This document shows positions 19,115 through 35,214 of a stretch of DNA of 44,209 nucleotides, one piece after another. The translations under genes and the position numbers were made by a program. The notes beneath the pieces are model-generated. The model ran no database searches. It saw only the letters and a program-made list of their open reading frames with translations, and was not told the origin of the DNA. Source of the DNA: a virus; UHGV virus genome UHGV-0377591, one strand, 5' to 3'. Numbering within the stretch: the stretch's first letter is position 1; every line of letters begins with the position of its first letter.

Positions 19115-20245
19115 ATGGCTCATAAGAAAATAACCGACGAACAGTTACGGGAAGAATTGAACGCCGGAACAAAAATTATTGATATCGCACGTAAGTATGG
19201 AATCTCAGACCGCGTTATCCGTATCCGTAAAGCGAAGCTGGCTAAGAAAGGTGTAGGCCACGGTCGCGACGTTAGTCACCTTGTGCCTGACGGCTACAAG
19301 ATTAAAGGTACGTCGTCTCTGGTGGACGAGTTCGGCAACACTAAACTGCAATGGGTTAAGACCGACACTGACGCAGAACGTCAGGTCGAGTTGATGAAAG
19401 CTGTAATCGAGGGCATGAAGTCAGAGATTACGCCGATTGCGCCTGTTAAAGCCGTTCGCGCCAAACGTGACGATAAACTACTTAATCTTTACACTGTATC
19501 TGATTTCCATCTCGGTATGCTGGCCTGGGCCGACGAGAGCGGCGACGACTGGGACATGAAGATTGCAGAAGACCTGTTCTCCCGATGGTTCGATGCGGCG
19601 TTTCAGAAAGCACCAGATGCAGGAACTGGGGTTATTAACCTGCTGGGTGACTTCGCGCACTTCGATAGTCTGGATGCGGTTACGCCAGCGAGTGGTCATG
19701 TTCTTGATGCGGACACTCGTTATCAGAAACTGGTCCGCTACATGATTCGTATGGTACGCCGTGTTGTCGGTATGGCGCTGGTTAAGCATAAAAATGTTCG
19801 CTTGCTTATCGTGCAAGGGAATCACGACGAAAGTGGCATGATTTGGTTAGCTGAGATGTTTAGTACGCTGTACGACAATGAGCCGCGTGTGTTCGTAGAT
19901 ACGTCGCCGGATGTTTACAAGATGGTTCAACACGGCAAAACGACGCTGTTCTTTACACACGGCCATAAATGCAGGTTTGAGGTGGTCGAACCGATTATGA
20001 TTGCCAAGTTCCGCAAAGCGTTCGGCGAGAGCGTTTACAGCTACGCCCACGTAGGCCACCTGCACCATCAGAAGATTGTAGAAAGCCGTAACATGATTGT
20101 TGAGCAACACCGCACCTTAGCGGCTAAAGACGCCTACGCCTCGCGCGGCGGATGGATGTCGGGCCGTAGTGCAAATGTAATTACTTATAGCGCCGAATAT
20201 GGCGAGGTCGCACGTTTAACTATTTCACCGGAGATGCTGGGATGA
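19115..20245 (+). CDS. Calcineurin-like (Mre11/SbcD-type) metallophosphoesterase with N-terminal HTH-like domain, 376 aa
   Basis: Motifs VSDFHLG, LLGDFAHFD, VQGNHDE, FTHGHK, HVGHLHH; N-terminal TKIIDIARKYGISDRVIRIRK. Confidence 0.75.
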   Translation: MAHKKITDEQLREELNAGTKIIDIARKYGISDRVIRIRKAKLAKKGVGHGRDVSHLVPDGYKIKGTSSLVDEFGNTKLQWVKTDTDAERQVELMKAVIEGMKSEITPIAPVKAVRAKRDDKLLNLYTVSDFHLGMLAWADESGDDWDMKIAEDLFSRWFDAAFQKAPDAGTGVINLLGDFAHFDSLDAVTPASGHVLDADTRYQKLVRYMIRMVRRVVGMALVKHKNVRLLIVQGNHDESGMIWLAEMFSTLYDNEPRVFVDTSPDVYKMVQHGKTTLFFTHGHKCRFEVVEPIMIAKFRKAFGESVYSYAHVGHLHHQKIVESRNMIVEQHRTLAAKDAYASRGGWMSGRSANVITYSAEYGEVARLTISPEMLG

Positions 20246-20730
20246 AAGATATTGTGATTTTCGATTTAGACGGGACATTGGCGGACGGTACTCATCGTTT
20301 ACACCTGCTACCGAAAGATAACTACAACGAAACATGGGCGTGGAAGCCATTTAACATGGCGTGCAAAGATGATTCGCCGATATATGACAACATCCACTTG
20401 TGCAACACGCTGTGACATACCGGGATGACCATAATCATCCTTACCGGGCGAAGCGACGACGCCGAGGAAGAAACTCGTGAGTGGTTACGTAAAAACAATG
20501 TCAAGTTCGACGTTCTGTTAATGCGCAGCAAGCACGACAACAGAAAAGACATCGTAATTAAAGAAGAGGTGTTACGTGCTATCGGGCTGGAGAGAATATT
20601 GTGTGCGTTCGACGACTCTCCAGCGGTAATAAAGCATTTCCGCGGACTCGGTATAACCACTCACGCGGTTACTGAATACGACTGTAACGGGAACTCTACA
20701 CACTTAAAATCACACGGGAGCGATAAATAA
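20242..20730 (+). pseudogene. HAD-superfamily phosphatase (polynucleotide 3'-phosphatase-like) interrupted by an in-frame TGA at 20413-20415
   Basis: Motif I VIFDLDGTLA lies before the stop; motifs ILTGRSDD, HDNRKD and AFDDS lie after it in the same frame. By recollection resembles the phosphatase domain of T4 polynucleotide kinase. Confidence 0.6.
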
Positions 20731-21284
20731 TGGCTAAGGTAATTATTCTTAATGGCCCTGCGGGCTGCGGGAAAGACACACTTGCTATGGCGCTGGTAGA
20801 AATGGGCTTTGCGAAAGGAACTACCAGTTTCAAGAATCCAATGTTCAATATCGCTCTGGCGGCGTTAGGCCCGGATGCTTACCACGAGTTTCTCGACGGC
20901 TACGACGACCGGGCGCGGAAAGAAAAGCCAGAAGGCTTCCTTAATGGCTTGTCGCGGCGTCAGTTCATGATTGCTATATCTGAGCAATTCATTAAACCGG
21001 TACTTGGTAGTGATTATTTCGGTAAGTATCTTGCTGGAAACTTGCCAGACGGCGACGAAGTTTTTGTAGTGTCCGATGGCGGGTTCGCCAGCGAAGTAGC
21101 CCCTATCGTCGCCGCGGGTCATGATGTAAGAATCGTCCGCTTGCACCGAGAAGGCTATACGTTTGAGGGGGACAGCCGTGGTTATCTGTATGGCGTTGAT
21201 GGTGTAAAAGATTGCGACACCTACATCATACCGGGGGACATTAAATCGAACGTTATAGACATTGCTTTAAAATTAGGTTTGTAA
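20730..21284 (+). CDS. P-loop kinase (dNMP kinase-like or polynucleotide 5'-kinase-like), 184 aa
   Basis: Walker A ILNGPAGCGKDT; ATGA-type overlap with the HAD gene stop. Confidence 0.65.
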   Translation: MAKVIILNGPAGCGKDTLAMALVEMGFAKGTTSFKNPMFNIALAALGPDAYHEFLDGYDDRARKEKPEGFLNGLSRRQFMIAISEQFIKPVLGSDYFGKYLAGNLPDGDEVFVVSDGGFASEVAPIVAAGHDVRIVRLHREGYTFEGDSRGYLYGVDGVKDCDTYIIPGDIKSNVIDIALKLGL

Positions 21285-21312: not shown

Positions 21313-22479
21313 TTATGCGTAACTAATACGTTGAATTACGATAGACGACTGGTATTGGTTGCCTGTGGACTGCCCTTCTATACTTTGGGTAATTGATTCC
21401 GGGCCGGATATTTCTGGTGTAACCGCCGTAAGCTCTGCACGTTTCAAACTGAAAGACATAGCCCCGTTTACCCCCGCCAGAATAGAGTTAATCTCTACCT
21501 GCTGTTCGTTGATAAACTTCTGAATCATAGCCATGTCATACAGCTTGCCGGAGATGGAGAAGGTGTTAGCCGCGCGGCTACGTTCCACAAACGCTACGTT
21601 AGTGTTACCAAGTTCGAACTGCGCGGATGCACTGTTGTCGTTGGTGATGGTCAGGCTGTCACACCGCAACGGAGTAGAACCGTCGAACACAGAGACGTCA
21701 ACGGAGGAGAACGGCTCGTCACCAAACGTAACAGAAGAGAAATCAGAGCCGGACGGCGGCGTAGCGAGAATCTCCTGGCTGCGCCCGATGAACGGGAAGC
21801 TGCCCGTTACCATCGCGTTAACGGCCTGCTCCACGGTAAAACCGGAAACTTCCACACCTTTGGTCAGTGTGTACGCGTCGGCCCCACCGCACTGGCCTTT
21901 GTACCAGGTGAGGATAGAGAACGTCTTACACGCGTTACCAGTTTCCAGTTTATCGCCGGTTTTAGCGTCGGTTGTTACGGTCTCGGTGGTCAGAGTATGT
22001 TGGATCCCAGCACCGGTGACAACAGTCGCACTTACCTCGGTTACGATAAACGGTTTAGCGTTATCGCCCGTTAAGCCAGTAAACGCAATCAGGTCGCCTA
22101 CTTCAACGCCATCCGTAATGAAGCTACCGTCGGCACGAGTGAACGTCTTGCCCACCGGTGCGACGGTAATCGACAGCCCCGACAGAGAAACACCGGATTG
22201 CCACGTAGAGCCTAAAGCCCCCGCCAGCCAGTCGTCCTGGCTTTTCGAGCTAAGCTCGATGGCGTATTCTCCGCTAACCTGTTTGTTACCGGTGCGGATG
22301 GACGTAGTTTCACGGCTGCCGTCCAGTTCATTGGAGGTCAGCGTGTCGCGGGTAATAGCGGGAACGCCACCTGTGTTGCGCAACGGCGACCAGACCGGGT
22401 TGGTCGGTGTTACGCCCGGGGTCACTTCCGCCACATAGAATTGCGCGGTATTCGCGCCCTTAAAAGGAGTTGTAGCCAT
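21313..22479 (-). CDS. Major tail (tube) protein
   Basis: Start moved to ATG 22479 (AGAGG upstream); large protein followed by a strong terminator; position before the chaperones. Confidence 0.7.
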   Translation of the reverse strand: MATTPFKGANTAQFYVAEVTPGVTPTNPVWSPLRNTGGVPAITRDTLTSNELDGSRETTSIRTGNKQVSGEYAIELSSKSQDDWLAGALGSTWQSGVSLSGLSITVAPVGKTFTRADGSFITDGVEVGDLIAFTGLTGDNAKPFIVTEVSATVVTGAGIQHTLTTETVTTDAKTGDKLETGNACKTFSILTWYKGQCGGADAYTLTKGVEVSGFTVEQAVNAMVTGSFPFIGRSQEILATPPSGSDFSSVTFGDEPFSSVDVSVFDGSTPLRCDSLTITNDNSASAQFELGNTNVAFVERSRAANTFSISGKLYDMAMIQKFINEQQVEINSILAGVNGAMSFSLKRAELTAVTPEISGPESITQSIEGQSTGNQYQSSIVIQRISYA

Positions 22480-22481
22480 AT

Positions 22482-22898
22482 TCACAGCCTCTTGGTGAAT
22501 GCAATAAAGTTAATTGACAATGGTTTTTTGGCCCATCCGTTTTCTACAATCAGCGGCCCCAGGCTAACCGATTGAACCTCGGCGCAGATGTCGTTACGCG
22601 AAAATGACTTACCTGCTTTAAACGCCGTGTTAAGTAAGTCTGCCATTTTATTGATTGGCGCGCTACCTTTCACCGATGCGTAGTTAATATCTACCTGATA
22701 GACGCCCGCACGTTGTTCCGTGAAGAACAAATCAGCCTGTTCCGTATCCGCCAGCAACATGTAACTTGCCAGATACGGCGTATCGGTTGACGTCGGCGCA
22801 TCGATGTTTTCAAGCGCAACCTTGATGCCGTTGGCGGTTCCGAAGGCTACCAGCGGTACATCAAACGCTTTTGTTAAGTCCTCAAAGTAGCCCATCAT
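22482..22898 (-). CDS. Tail terminator / tail completion protein (by position)
   Basis: ORF track; ATGA coupling on both sides. Confidence 0.45.
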   Translation of the reverse strand: MMGYFEDLTKAFDVPLVAFGTANGIKVALENIDAPTSTDTPYLASYMLLADTEQADLFFTEQRAGVYQVDINYASVKGSAPINKMADLLNTAFKAGKSFSRNDICAEVQSVSLGPLIVENGWAKKPLSINFIAFTKRL

Positions 22899-34804: not shown

Positions 34805-35047
34805 TTAGTAGCCGCATTCGTTCTCCTCTTTAGCAATACGTTGCTCTGTTTTAGTGATACCCCGGCGCGTGAATAACACCGGGCTTGTCTTAACGTGCGT
34901 CATCAGACGATTGTTATAAATTACGTGGCGCTCGCAATCAACGTCTTTGCTGTACTTCGCAATCGTCATTTCGTTGATGCCGGTTTGTCGGCATGTCTCA
35001 GCCATCGTGCCGTATTCTTTAATCAGGTTCGGAATGCTGGTAATCAT
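34805..35047 (-). CDS. Small HTH-containing protein, 80 aa
   Basis: Start moved to ATG 35047 (GAGGAA upstream; ATGA coupling); helix-turn-helix-like MAETCRQTGINEMTIAKY. Confidence 0.5.
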   Translation of the reverse strand: MITSIPNLIKEYGTMAETCRQTGINEMTIAKYSKDVDCERHVIYNNRLMTHVKTSPVLFTRRGITKTEQRIAKEENECGY

Positions 35048-35214
35048 CCTAAGAAATTCCTCGTTGTCCACATCGCATTCGGATATTTGTTATCACGGTC
35101 CTGCACTACGGCAATCATGTTTCCTCGTTGCACAAGACAGAAGTGCCGCTGTTGCTCGCCGTTGTATCGACGCCAGATTGCTTCTTCTATTGCGGCGTTG
35201 ATGTCACTGAACAT
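35044..35214 (-). CDS. Hypothetical small protein, 56 aa (not in the ORF track)
   Basis: Manual translation MFSDINAAIEEAIWRRYNGEQQRHFCLVQRGNMIAVVQDRDNKYPNAMWTTRNFLG. Confidence 0.35.
   Translation of the reverse strand: MFSDINAAIEEAIWRRYNGEQQRHFCLVQRGNMIAVVQDRDNKYPNAMWTTRNFLG

What the first reader, a model, noticed from the sequence alone, without database searches (positions are those of the whole stretch)
20413..20415. Single in-frame TGA inside an otherwise intact HAD phosphatase gene
Reading from ATG 20242 gives motif I (FDLDGTL) and then …HLCNTL-stop-HTGMTIIILTGR…; the downstream part (track ORF 20425..20730) is in the same frame and keeps HAD motifs II to IV. Nothing else in the gene looks decayed. 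This is either a very recent nonsense mutation, a sequencing or assembly error, or a recoding event such as UGA readthrough.
Basis: seen in the sequence. Interest (0 to 1): 0.6.

Follow-up and report, generated by a model that had tools for sequence, protein, structure and literature searches.

The report
Recent stop mutation in phage phosphatase
A wild E. coli phage (Kagunavirus) assembled from a metagenome carries a single fresh G-to-A change that turns a tryptophan codon into a stop inside a dispensable phosphatase gene; it is an ordinary, very young nonsense mutation, not a recoding signal.

Summary
TGA at 20413-20415 lies in frame inside a 162-codon PNKP-type HAD phosphatase gene (20242..20730, +).

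- **Relatives:** all 14 relatives examined that carry the same allele type read TGG (Trp58) there.
- **No decay:** with Trp restored, the protein is 100% identical to that of phage EM1. The two genes differ by 18 synonymous changes plus this one. The 315 nt after the stop are nucleotide-identical to an intact IMG/VR relative.
- **Not an assembler artefact:** the window is ENA metagenome contig ERZ27313269:k115_217878. The identical TGA allele is in an independent Logan assembly of run SRR3313046, and three contigs in all carry both fragments.
- **Not programmed recoding:** no relative has the stop, nothing downstream resembles a SECIS or a stable structure, the phage has no tRNA, and TGA ends 30 of 64 conserved genes here.
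- **Accessory gene:** the closest genome overall (Schulenburg) lacks it.

Most likely effect: a 57-aa dead fragment is the main product. Background UGA reading by Trp-tRNATrp (about 2-4% in E. coli K-12) would regenerate exactly the ancestral protein. An ATG 9 nt after the stop could restart translation. Interest is low.

The parts
20242..20730 (+). PNKP-type HAD phosphatase gene (162 codons), interrupted at codon 58
   Evidence: Pfam HAD_PNKP 1.3e-20; phrog_415 7.5e-67; PDB matches to 4XRP, 5UJ0 and 1LTQ; intact 162-aa orthologues are annotated in EM1, XY1 and ST20.
20413..20415 (+). In-frame TGA (opal), derived from TGG (Trp58) by a G->A transition at 20415; the next base is C (UGA-C context)
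   Evidence: TGG in 12 relatives and in L029 and L030. The same TGA is in the Logan SRR3313046 contig.
20242..20415 (+). N-terminal fragment ORF, 57 aa (6.6 kDa), carrying only HAD motif I (FDLDGT)
   Evidence: called as a separate 57-aa gene on the source contig.
20425..20730 (+). Same-frame ORF of 101 aa (11.5 kDa) starting at ATG (Met62), 9 nt after the TGA; carries motifs II-IV; candidate translational restart product
   Evidence: called as a 101-aa HAD_PNKP gene on the source contig. Restart is inferred from the distance dependence of termination-reinitiation in E. coli (PMC10666635).
20230..20233 (+). GGAG Shine-Dalgarno-like motif 8 nt upstream of ATG 20242
   Evidence: Read directly from the sequence.
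19115..20245 (+). Upstream metallophosphoesterase / DNA-repair-exonuclease-like gene; its TGA overlaps the HAD ATG (ATGA, 4-nt overlap)
   Evidence: phrog_704 7.7e-164; Metallophos_2 match below the Pfam cut-off.
20730..21284 (+). Downstream P-loop kinase-like gene (dNMP-kinase family phrog_139); its ATG overlaps the HAD TAA (TAATG, 1-nt overlap) and it has its own GGGAG 9 nt upstream
   Evidence: phrog_139 3.7e-43; only Walker-A matches in the PDB.

Best explanation
This is a real and very recent opal nonsense mutation (TGG->TGA, Trp58->stop) in an accessory gene of a wild Kagunavirus population. The gene is a stand-alone PNKP-type HAD 3'-phosphatase in a three-gene module of metallophosphoesterase, phosphatase and P-loop kinase. 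Shown: the stop is derived, unique to this genome, reproduced by two assembly pipelines, and not followed by any decay; the gene is absent from the closest relative. Inferred consequences: most ribosomes terminate at UGA and release a 57-aa peptide that holds only the nucleophile motif I and cannot be an active phosphatase. A small share of ribosomes read UGA with Trp-tRNATrp, the normal near-cognate competitor of RF2. Because the ancestral residue was Trp, this yields exactly the wild-type 18.6-kDa enzyme. That share is about 2-4% in E. coli K-12 reporters, and the following C, from my own recollection of the literature, is the weakest E. coli context. The allele is therefore a leaky knock-down, not a null. 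Some terminating ribosomes may restart at AUG 20425, 9 nt downstream. That would give a motif I-less 101-aa fragment and keep ribosomes flowing to the 1-nt-overlapping kinase gene, which in any case has its own ribosome-binding site. The phage tolerates the lesion because the gene is dispensable in its current host.
For: The TGA is present and in frame. TGG sits at the homologous codon in 12/12 same-allele relatives and in 2 further metagenomic contigs. No phage record, IMG/VR contig, JGI metagenome contig or GTDB genome carries the TGA allele. Window versus EM1 shows 19 nt differences, of which 18 are synonymous and 1 is the nonsense change. Downstream of the stop there are 0 differences from L005 over 315 nt, and 6 synonymous and 0 nonsynonymous differences from EM1. 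The window equals ENA ERZ27313269 k115_217878. The identical allele is in Logan SRR3313046_33378, with 0 differences over 2955 bp. Three contigs carry both fragments. It is the only interrupted gene among 132 mapped CDSs. Schulenburg, the closest genome at 94%, has no homologue. Trp58 aligns to Ala in T4 Pnkp and Lys in Pnkp1, and is absent in the K1G-type allele, so the position is tolerant. Trp-tRNATrp competes with RF2, giving 2-4% UGA readthrough in wild-type E. coli (PMC10570021). Termination-reinitiation in E. coli still works partly at +2 to +14 nt and is nearly lost at +38 nt (PMC10666635).
Against: Raw reads could not be inspected, so the allele frequency within the sample is unknown. 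The two assemblies may derive from the same reads. No expression or protein data exist; readthrough and restart levels are extrapolated from E. coli K-12 reporters and from other gene pairs. AUG 20425 has no convincing Shine-Dalgarno sequence and lies in a predicted 7-bp hairpin. The natural host strain, and therefore its RF2 activity, is unknown. The claim that UGA-C is the weakest E. coli stop context (Poole et al. 1995) rests on my own knowledge, because the paper was not readable here.
Confidence: 0.85

Rival explanations
1. Artefact: the A at 20415 is a sequencing, amplification (for example MDA or PCR jackpot) or assembly error, and the phage really has TGG.
For: It is a single-base substitution in a metagenome-assembled contig. 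Every other known genome has TGG. The gene is otherwise perfect.
Against: The identical allele was recovered by a different pipeline (Logan, run SRR3313046) on a contig of different length (36,308 vs 44,324 bp), and three contigs carry it. No other gene in the 44-kb window shows a stop or frameshift, so the assembly is of high quality. Assemblers follow the best-supported k-mer path, so the A must dominate the reads (inference).
Confidence: 0.07
2. Programmed recoding: the UGA is a functional signal (regulated readthrough, selenocysteine insertion, or a reassigned UGA=Trp code in the host) that makes full-length protein by design.
For: UGA is the leakiest stop and is read by Trp-tRNATrp (PMC10570021). 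The ancestral residue is Trp, and the +4 base is C.
Against: The stop is not conserved in any relative. There is no Rfam match, and the 80 nt around and after the UGA fold no better than shuffles (z = -0.88). Relatives with TGG share this downstream sequence, down to nucleotide identity in L005. Homologues have Trp, Ala, Lys or a gap here, never Cys or Sec. The phage has no tRNA gene. TGA terminates 30/64 conserved genes of this genome, including 6 in the same TGAC context, and about 45% of genes in relatives. This is the only in-frame TGA found.
Confidence: 0.02
3. Functional split or selected loss: the nonsense allele is advantageous. Either the 57-aa and 101-aa pieces work together or separately after restart at AUG 20425, or inactivation of the phosphatase was selected, for example to escape a host defence that senses it.
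For: AUG 20425 lies 9 nt after the stop, within the range where E. coli termination-reinitiation still operates. The allele is dominant enough to be assembled. A second, non-identical 101-aa protein of another allele type (P0002) exists on a 1,026-bp Logan contig.
Against: No relative shows the split. Motif I, with the nucleophile Asp, would sit on a different polypeptide from motifs II-IV of one Rossmann-like domain. AUG 20425 has no good Shine-Dalgarno sequence and is sequestered in a hairpin. P0002 could not be examined and may be a contig-edge gene call. Loss of a gene that half the genus lacks needs no selective explanation.
Confidence: 0.06

Closest known systems
Phosphatase domain of bacteriophage T4 polynucleotide kinase/phosphatase (Pnkp, PseT; PDB 1LTQ, 5UJ0) and Pnkp1 (PDB 4XRP)
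   Same: Same HAD_PNKP family (Pfam PF25109, 74 bits). Motifs DxDGT, (I/V)xxSGR/TGR, RKD and DD align. It is a phage accessory end-healing or nucleotide-metabolism gene. From my own knowledge, T4 pseT is likewise dispensable on ordinary hosts.
   Different: Here the phosphatase is a stand-alone 162-aa protein without the fused N-terminal kinase. A separate P-loop kinase-like gene follows, which matches dNMP-kinase phrog_139 and has no PDB match to the Pnkp kinase domain. The copy in the window is interrupted by a stop. Substrate was not tested.
Classical opal (UGA) nonsense mutants of coliphages and their intrinsic leakiness
   Same: A TGG->TGA transition creates an opal codon that RF2 reads in competition with Trp-tRNATrp, giving a few percent full-length product (PMC10570021). 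Restart at a nearby AUG is also a known behaviour of such mutants (general knowledge; distance dependence in PMC10666635).
   Different: This one was found in a natural metagenomic population, not a laboratory mutant. Because the lost residue is Trp, the leak product would be identical to wild type.
Programmed UGA readthrough (for example the Qbeta A1 protein) and bacterial selenocysteine insertion
   Same: An in-frame UGA followed by coding sequence in the same frame.
   Different: Those stops are conserved among relatives and separate a complete protein from an extension, or lie upstream of a SECIS hairpin. Here the stop is unique to one genome, cuts a single domain in two, and has no associated element.

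Membership tests
HAD superfamily, PNKP-type phosphatase (Pfam PF25109) | Profile score above the curated threshold over the whole domain | tested here: met
   74.4 bits against a cut-off of 27.6, residues 3-145 on profile positions 2-140 of 143, with the stop read as Trp; phrog_415 7.5e-67.
HAD superfamily, PNKP-type phosphatase (Pfam PF25109) | Catalytic motifs I (DxDxT), II (S/T), III (K/R) and IV (DD) | tested here: met
   D8-L-D10-G-T12, ILT68GR, R102-K103-D104 and F-D123-D124-S. Motifs II-IV align to T4 Pnkp and Pnkp1. All are conserved in 22 relatives.
HAD superfamily, PNKP-type phosphatase (Pfam PF25109) | Uninterrupted reading frame encoding one polypeptide | tested here: not met
   TGA at codon 58. 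The gene belongs to the family by descent, but in this genome it is a nonsense allele.
HAD superfamily, PNKP-type phosphatase (Pfam PF25109) | 3'-phosphatase activity on polynucleotide or nucleotide substrates | not testable with these tools
   Needs an enzyme assay.
Programmed stop-codon readthrough | Stop codon conserved at the site among relatives | tested here: not met
   TGG in 14 same-allele relatives, and no stop in 10 others. No TGA allele in four public collections.
Programmed stop-codon readthrough | Stimulatory context or downstream RNA structure specific to the site | tested here: not met
   Fold z-score -0.88, no Rfam match. The downstream sequence is shared with TGG relatives and is nucleotide-identical in L005. 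The TGAC context is also used by 6 ordinary gene ends in the window.
Selenocysteine (SECIS-dependent) recoding | SECIS hairpin just downstream of UGA, and Cys or Sec at the site in homologues | tested here: not met
   No structured element beyond a 7-bp hairpin also present in TGG relatives. Homologues have Trp, Ala, Lys or a gap.
Alternative genetic code (UGA = Trp or Gly) | UGA absent as a terminator and frequent in frame at conserved positions | tested here: not met
   TGA ends 30/64 conserved genes. There is one in-frame TGA in 132 mapped CDSs. The relatives are E. coli phages.
Recent unitary pseudogene / nonsense allele | Disabling lesion relative to intact orthologues | tested here: met
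   A single TGG->TGA change against intact 162-aa orthologues.
Recent unitary pseudogene / nonsense allele | Relaxed constraint (excess nonsynonymous changes, further lesions) after the stop | tested here: not met
   0 nonsynonymous changes downstream versus EM1 and L005. The lesion is therefore too young for decay, or the gene is still partly expressed.

The most novel reading that the evidence does not exclude
The opal allele is not neutral debris but a selected, leaky down-tuning of the phosphatase in a natural phage population. Termination at a weak UGA-C, with Trp-tRNATrp readthrough, would restore the exact wild-type enzyme at a few percent. Restart at AUG 20425 would preserve coupling to the kinase. 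The benefit could be, for example, to evade a host defence that senses the phosphatase while keeping residual activity. A possible second truncated allele (P0002) would then hint at recurrence.
Probability: 0.05. Interest if true: 0.4.

Novelty: already known. Interest (0 to 1): 0.1.

Why it matters
It matters little beyond annotation. The locus should be annotated as one interrupted (pseudo)gene of the PNKP-type HAD phosphatase family, not as two small hypothetical genes, as gene callers did on the source contig. It adds one natural data point that the metallophosphoesterase-phosphatase-kinase module of Kagunaviruses is dispensable. It also illustrates that a Trp->opal change is the mildest kind of nonsense mutation, because background readthrough re-inserts Trp. 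It opens no new question about recoding.

Tried and rejected
1. Exact-pattern scans for the TGA allele in IMG/VR, JGI metagenome contigs and GTDB genomes, and a 71-nt megablast against phage records, found nothing.
2. A first window-wide scan for broken genes used all ORFs of two relatives. It was useless because antisense and out-of-frame ORFs dominated, so it was redone with annotated CDSs.
3. The only other flagged ORF (a Schulenburg 54-aa hypothetical) proved intact in the window with a different N-terminus.
4. An Rfam scan at a permissive E-value and RNA folding around the UGA found no element.
5. A tRNA scan for a suppressor found none.
7. Poole et al. 1995 could not be read, and the papers found with 'UGAC' dealt with eukaryotes, so the E. 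coli UGA-C statement stays marked as my own knowledge.
8. A search for the sample accessions in the literature found nothing.
9. A PDB search of the neighbouring P-loop protein gave only Walker-A matches.
10. +1 frameshifting of the prfB type (CUU UGA C) was considered and rejected. The P-site codon here is CUG, which cannot re-pair in +1, and the downstream ORF is in frame 0.
11. Strong Rho polarity was considered. The 314-nt stretch after the stop is not C-rich or G-poor (C 70, G 78), so it is not predicted, though this was not tested.

Full report
**Observation.** An ORF opens at ATG 20242 and is preceded by GGAG 8 nt upstream. It reads MKDIVIFDLDGTL...HLCNTL and meets TGA at 20413-20415. 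It then continues in the same frame (HTGMTIIILTGR...) to TAA at 20728-20730. The ORF lister gives a 57-aa ORF (20242..20415) and a 101-aa ORF (20425..20730), and (20425-20242) is divisible by 3. With the stop read as Trp, the 162-aa, 18.6-kDa product matches Pfam HAD_PNKP (PF25109) at 74.4 bits against a cut-off of 27.6, over residues 3-145. It matches PHROG 415 'polynucleotide kinase' at 7.5e-67. It also matches the solved phosphatase domains of Pnkp1 (4XRP) and T4 Pnkp (5UJ0, 1LTQ), with motif II (ILTGR), motif III (RKD) and motif IV (FDDS) aligned. Motif I (FDLDGT) lies before the stop, and motifs II-IV lie after it.

**What the genome is.** The window is a Kagunavirus (Guernseyvirinae), a K1G-like siphovirus of Escherichia. 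The 801 nt around the gene match 221 phage records, the best being Escherichia phage EM1 at 96%. Over 24 kb the closest genome is phage Schulenburg, at 94% identity and 94% coverage. The window is the ENA metagenome contig ERZ27313269:k115_217878. A 6,306-bp stretch of that contig is identical to the window. The contig length of 44,324 equals 44,209 + 115, which is what a circular MEGAHIT contig looks like once its k-mer overlap is trimmed.

**Comparison with relatives.**
- Codon 58 is TGG in EM1, BCH953P1, XY1 and ST20, in seven IMG/VR contigs, and in two further metagenomic contigs that encode the identical downstream kinase (L029, L030).
- Ten relatives carry a second allele type (K1G-like), in which the local segment is different and one residue shorter (L-NRRYAV instead of LWHTGMTI). 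None of them has a stop.
- The window differs from the EM1 gene at 19 nucleotides. Eighteen are synonymous and one is the TGG->TGA change, so the protein is otherwise 100% identical.
- Downstream of the stop there are 0 differences from the intact IMG/VR relative L005 over 315 nt. Against EM1 there are 6 synonymous and 0 nonsynonymous differences.
- The lesion is therefore a single derived G->A transition, too young for any further decay.
- No record with the TGA allele exists in the phage collection, IMG/VR, the JGI metagenome contigs or the GTDB genomes.

**Is it an artefact?**
- The exact 57-aa and 101-aa products are each on three contigs of 20-50 kb in the assembly index. So is the exact upstream 376-aa protein.
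- One of these contigs comes from a different pipeline and has a different length: Logan assembly SRR3313046_33378, 36,308 bp. It is identical to the window over 2,955 bp, including the TGA.
- Mapping the 161 annotated CDSs of EM1 and Schulenburg onto the window gave 132 matches. The phosphatase is the only well-aligned gene with an in-frame stop. The one other flagged small ORF is intact in the window (35044..35214, minus strand).
- A high-quality assembly with one substitution, reproduced by two assemblers, argues that the A is in the reads.
- I could not see the reads, and I cannot tell whether the two assemblies used the same run. I leave about 7% for an artefact, including an amplification jackpot.

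**Is it recoding?** The tests for programmed recoding all fail.
- The stop is not conserved in any relative.
- The 80 nt around and after the UGA fold no better than shuffled sequence (z = -0.88). The only local hairpin, a 7-bp stem that includes AUG 20425, lies in sequence that relatives with TGG share, down to nucleotide identity in L005.
- A permissive Rfam scan finds nothing.
- Homologues have Trp, Ala (T4 Pnkp), Lys (Pnkp1) or a gap at this position, never Cys. That excludes a selenocysteine history.
- The phage encodes no tRNA.
- TGA is the terminator of 30 of 64 conserved genes in this window, six of them in the same TGAC context. In relatives it ends 38 of 76 and 36 of 85 annotated genes. 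A UGA=Trp code is therefore excluded.
- A prfB-like +1 shift is not possible on CUG-UGA-C, and it is not needed because the downstream ORF is in frame 0.

**Most likely mechanism and consequences (inferred, not measured).**
- Ribosomes starting at AUG 20242 mostly terminate at UGA and release a 6.6-kDa peptide. It carries only the Asp nucleophile motif, so it cannot be an active HAD enzyme.
- UGA is the leakiest stop in E. coli. Trp-tRNATrp competes with RF2, and wild-type K-12 reporters give about 2% readthrough at 37 C and 4% at 25 C (PMC10570021).
- From my own knowledge (Poole, Brown and Tate 1995, listed as reference 92 of PMC5829715 but not readable here), UGA followed by C is the weakest E. 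coli termination signal.
- Because the ancestral residue is Trp, the readthrough product would be exactly the wild-type protein. The position also looks tolerant to substitution: it lies on the variable helix before the motif II strand. The allele is best described as a leaky knock-down.
- AUG 20425 lies 9 nt after the stop. In E. coli, termination-reinitiation is reduced but not abolished at +2 to +14 nt, and is nearly lost at +38 nt (PMC10666635). Some restart is therefore plausible, even though the AUG lacks a good Shine-Dalgarno sequence and sits in a hairpin.
- The restart product (11.5 kDa, motifs II-IV only) should be inactive. Its translation would, however, keep ribosomes arriving at the TAATG overlap with the downstream kinase-like gene. 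That gene also has its own GGGAG 9 nt upstream.
- The stretch after the stop is not C-rich (C 70, G 78 of 314). I therefore do not predict strong Rho polarity, but this was not tested.

**Why the phage tolerates it.**
- The gene is accessory. Schulenburg, the closest genome, has three small unrelated ORFs between the metallophosphoesterase gene and the tail tube gene. It gives no tblastn hit to the phosphatase.
- Only about 57 phage records encode a protein at least 80% identical, whereas 504 records match the surrounding 24 kb.
- The wider family is common in phages: 1,794 records, often next to a dNMP-kinase-like P-loop gene.
- By homology it is the 3'-phosphatase half of T4 Pnkp. From general knowledge, T4 Pnkp is dispensable on ordinary hosts and needed only against tRNA-nicking defence.
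- The substrate of the stand-alone Kagunavirus enzyme is unknown.

**Comparison with known things, and novelty.**
- By descent the gene is a member of the HAD_PNKP family. All sequence criteria are met except an intact frame.
- The event is a classical opal nonsense mutation. It is not a member of the programmed-readthrough, selenocysteine or alternative-code classes, because each defining feature that could be tested was not met.
- Nothing here is new in kind.
- The practical consequence is for annotation. The two small genes called on the source contig (57 aa with no Pfam hit, 101 aa HAD_PNKP) are fragments of one interrupted gene.

**Residual uncertainty.**
- Allele frequency in the reads is unknown.
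- The third contig could not be viewed.
- A second, non-identical 101-aa protein (P0002, XY1-like allele) exists on a 1,026-bp Logan contig.
- The most novel reading still open is that the leaky stop is a selected down-tuning or escape allele. I put it at about 5%.

**Scores.** Interest 0.1. Best explanation (real recent nonsense mutation, leaky by default) 0.85.

Noticed in passing
window 19115-21284 (+); Schulenburg L023 13304-15017: The metallophosphoesterase, HAD phosphatase and P-loop kinase genes form a tightly packed module with ATGA (4-nt) and TAATG (1-nt) stop/start overlaps, which suggests translational coupling. In the closest genome, Schulenburg, the phosphatase and kinase are replaced by three small hypothetical ORFs, so this is a mosaic accessory module.
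   Followed up: partly
window 20242-20730; loci L001-L021: The phosphatase gene exists in two allele types in Kagunaviruses. They differ sharply only in residues ~50-95 (LWHTGMTI...KNNVKFDVL versus L-NRRYAV...RHRVEFYQL). The window's copy itself looks mosaic: its 5' part encodes the EM1 amino-acid variants (N29, S45, Y48), while its 3' 315 nt are identical to IMG/VR contig L005. This suggests intragenic recombination.
   Followed up: partly
protein P0002 (Logan contig of 1,026 bp; not retrievable): A second 101-aa protein starts at the same Met62 but belongs to the XY1/ST20-like allele. It is either an independent truncation of the same gene in another phage or a gene call at a contig edge.
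   Followed up: partly
whole window; ENA ERZ27313269 k115_217878: The window length (44,209) equals the source contig length (44,324) minus 115. This fits a circular MEGAHIT contig with its terminal k-mer repeat removed, that is, a complete genome.
   Followed up: partly
window 21533-22438 (+), antisense to the tail tube gene 21313-22485 (-): A 301-aa ORF runs antisense to the tail tube protein gene. EM1 has a corresponding antisense ORF of 349 aa at 92% identity. It is probably a by-product of codon composition and not a gene.
   Followed up: no
Klebsiella phage mfs OP611406.1 4633-5114 (H73): The homologous phosphatase matches in two tblastn pieces under two 'hypothetical protein' features. 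This may be a frameshifted or split copy in an unrelated phage.
   Followed up: no
window 34805-35214 (-): The small ORF at 35044..35214 shares only its C-terminal half (100% over 26 aa) with a 54-aa Schulenburg hypothetical protein. The N-terminal half is in another frame relative to Schulenburg. It is a mosaic junction inside a tiny gene, not a broken gene.
   Followed up: partly
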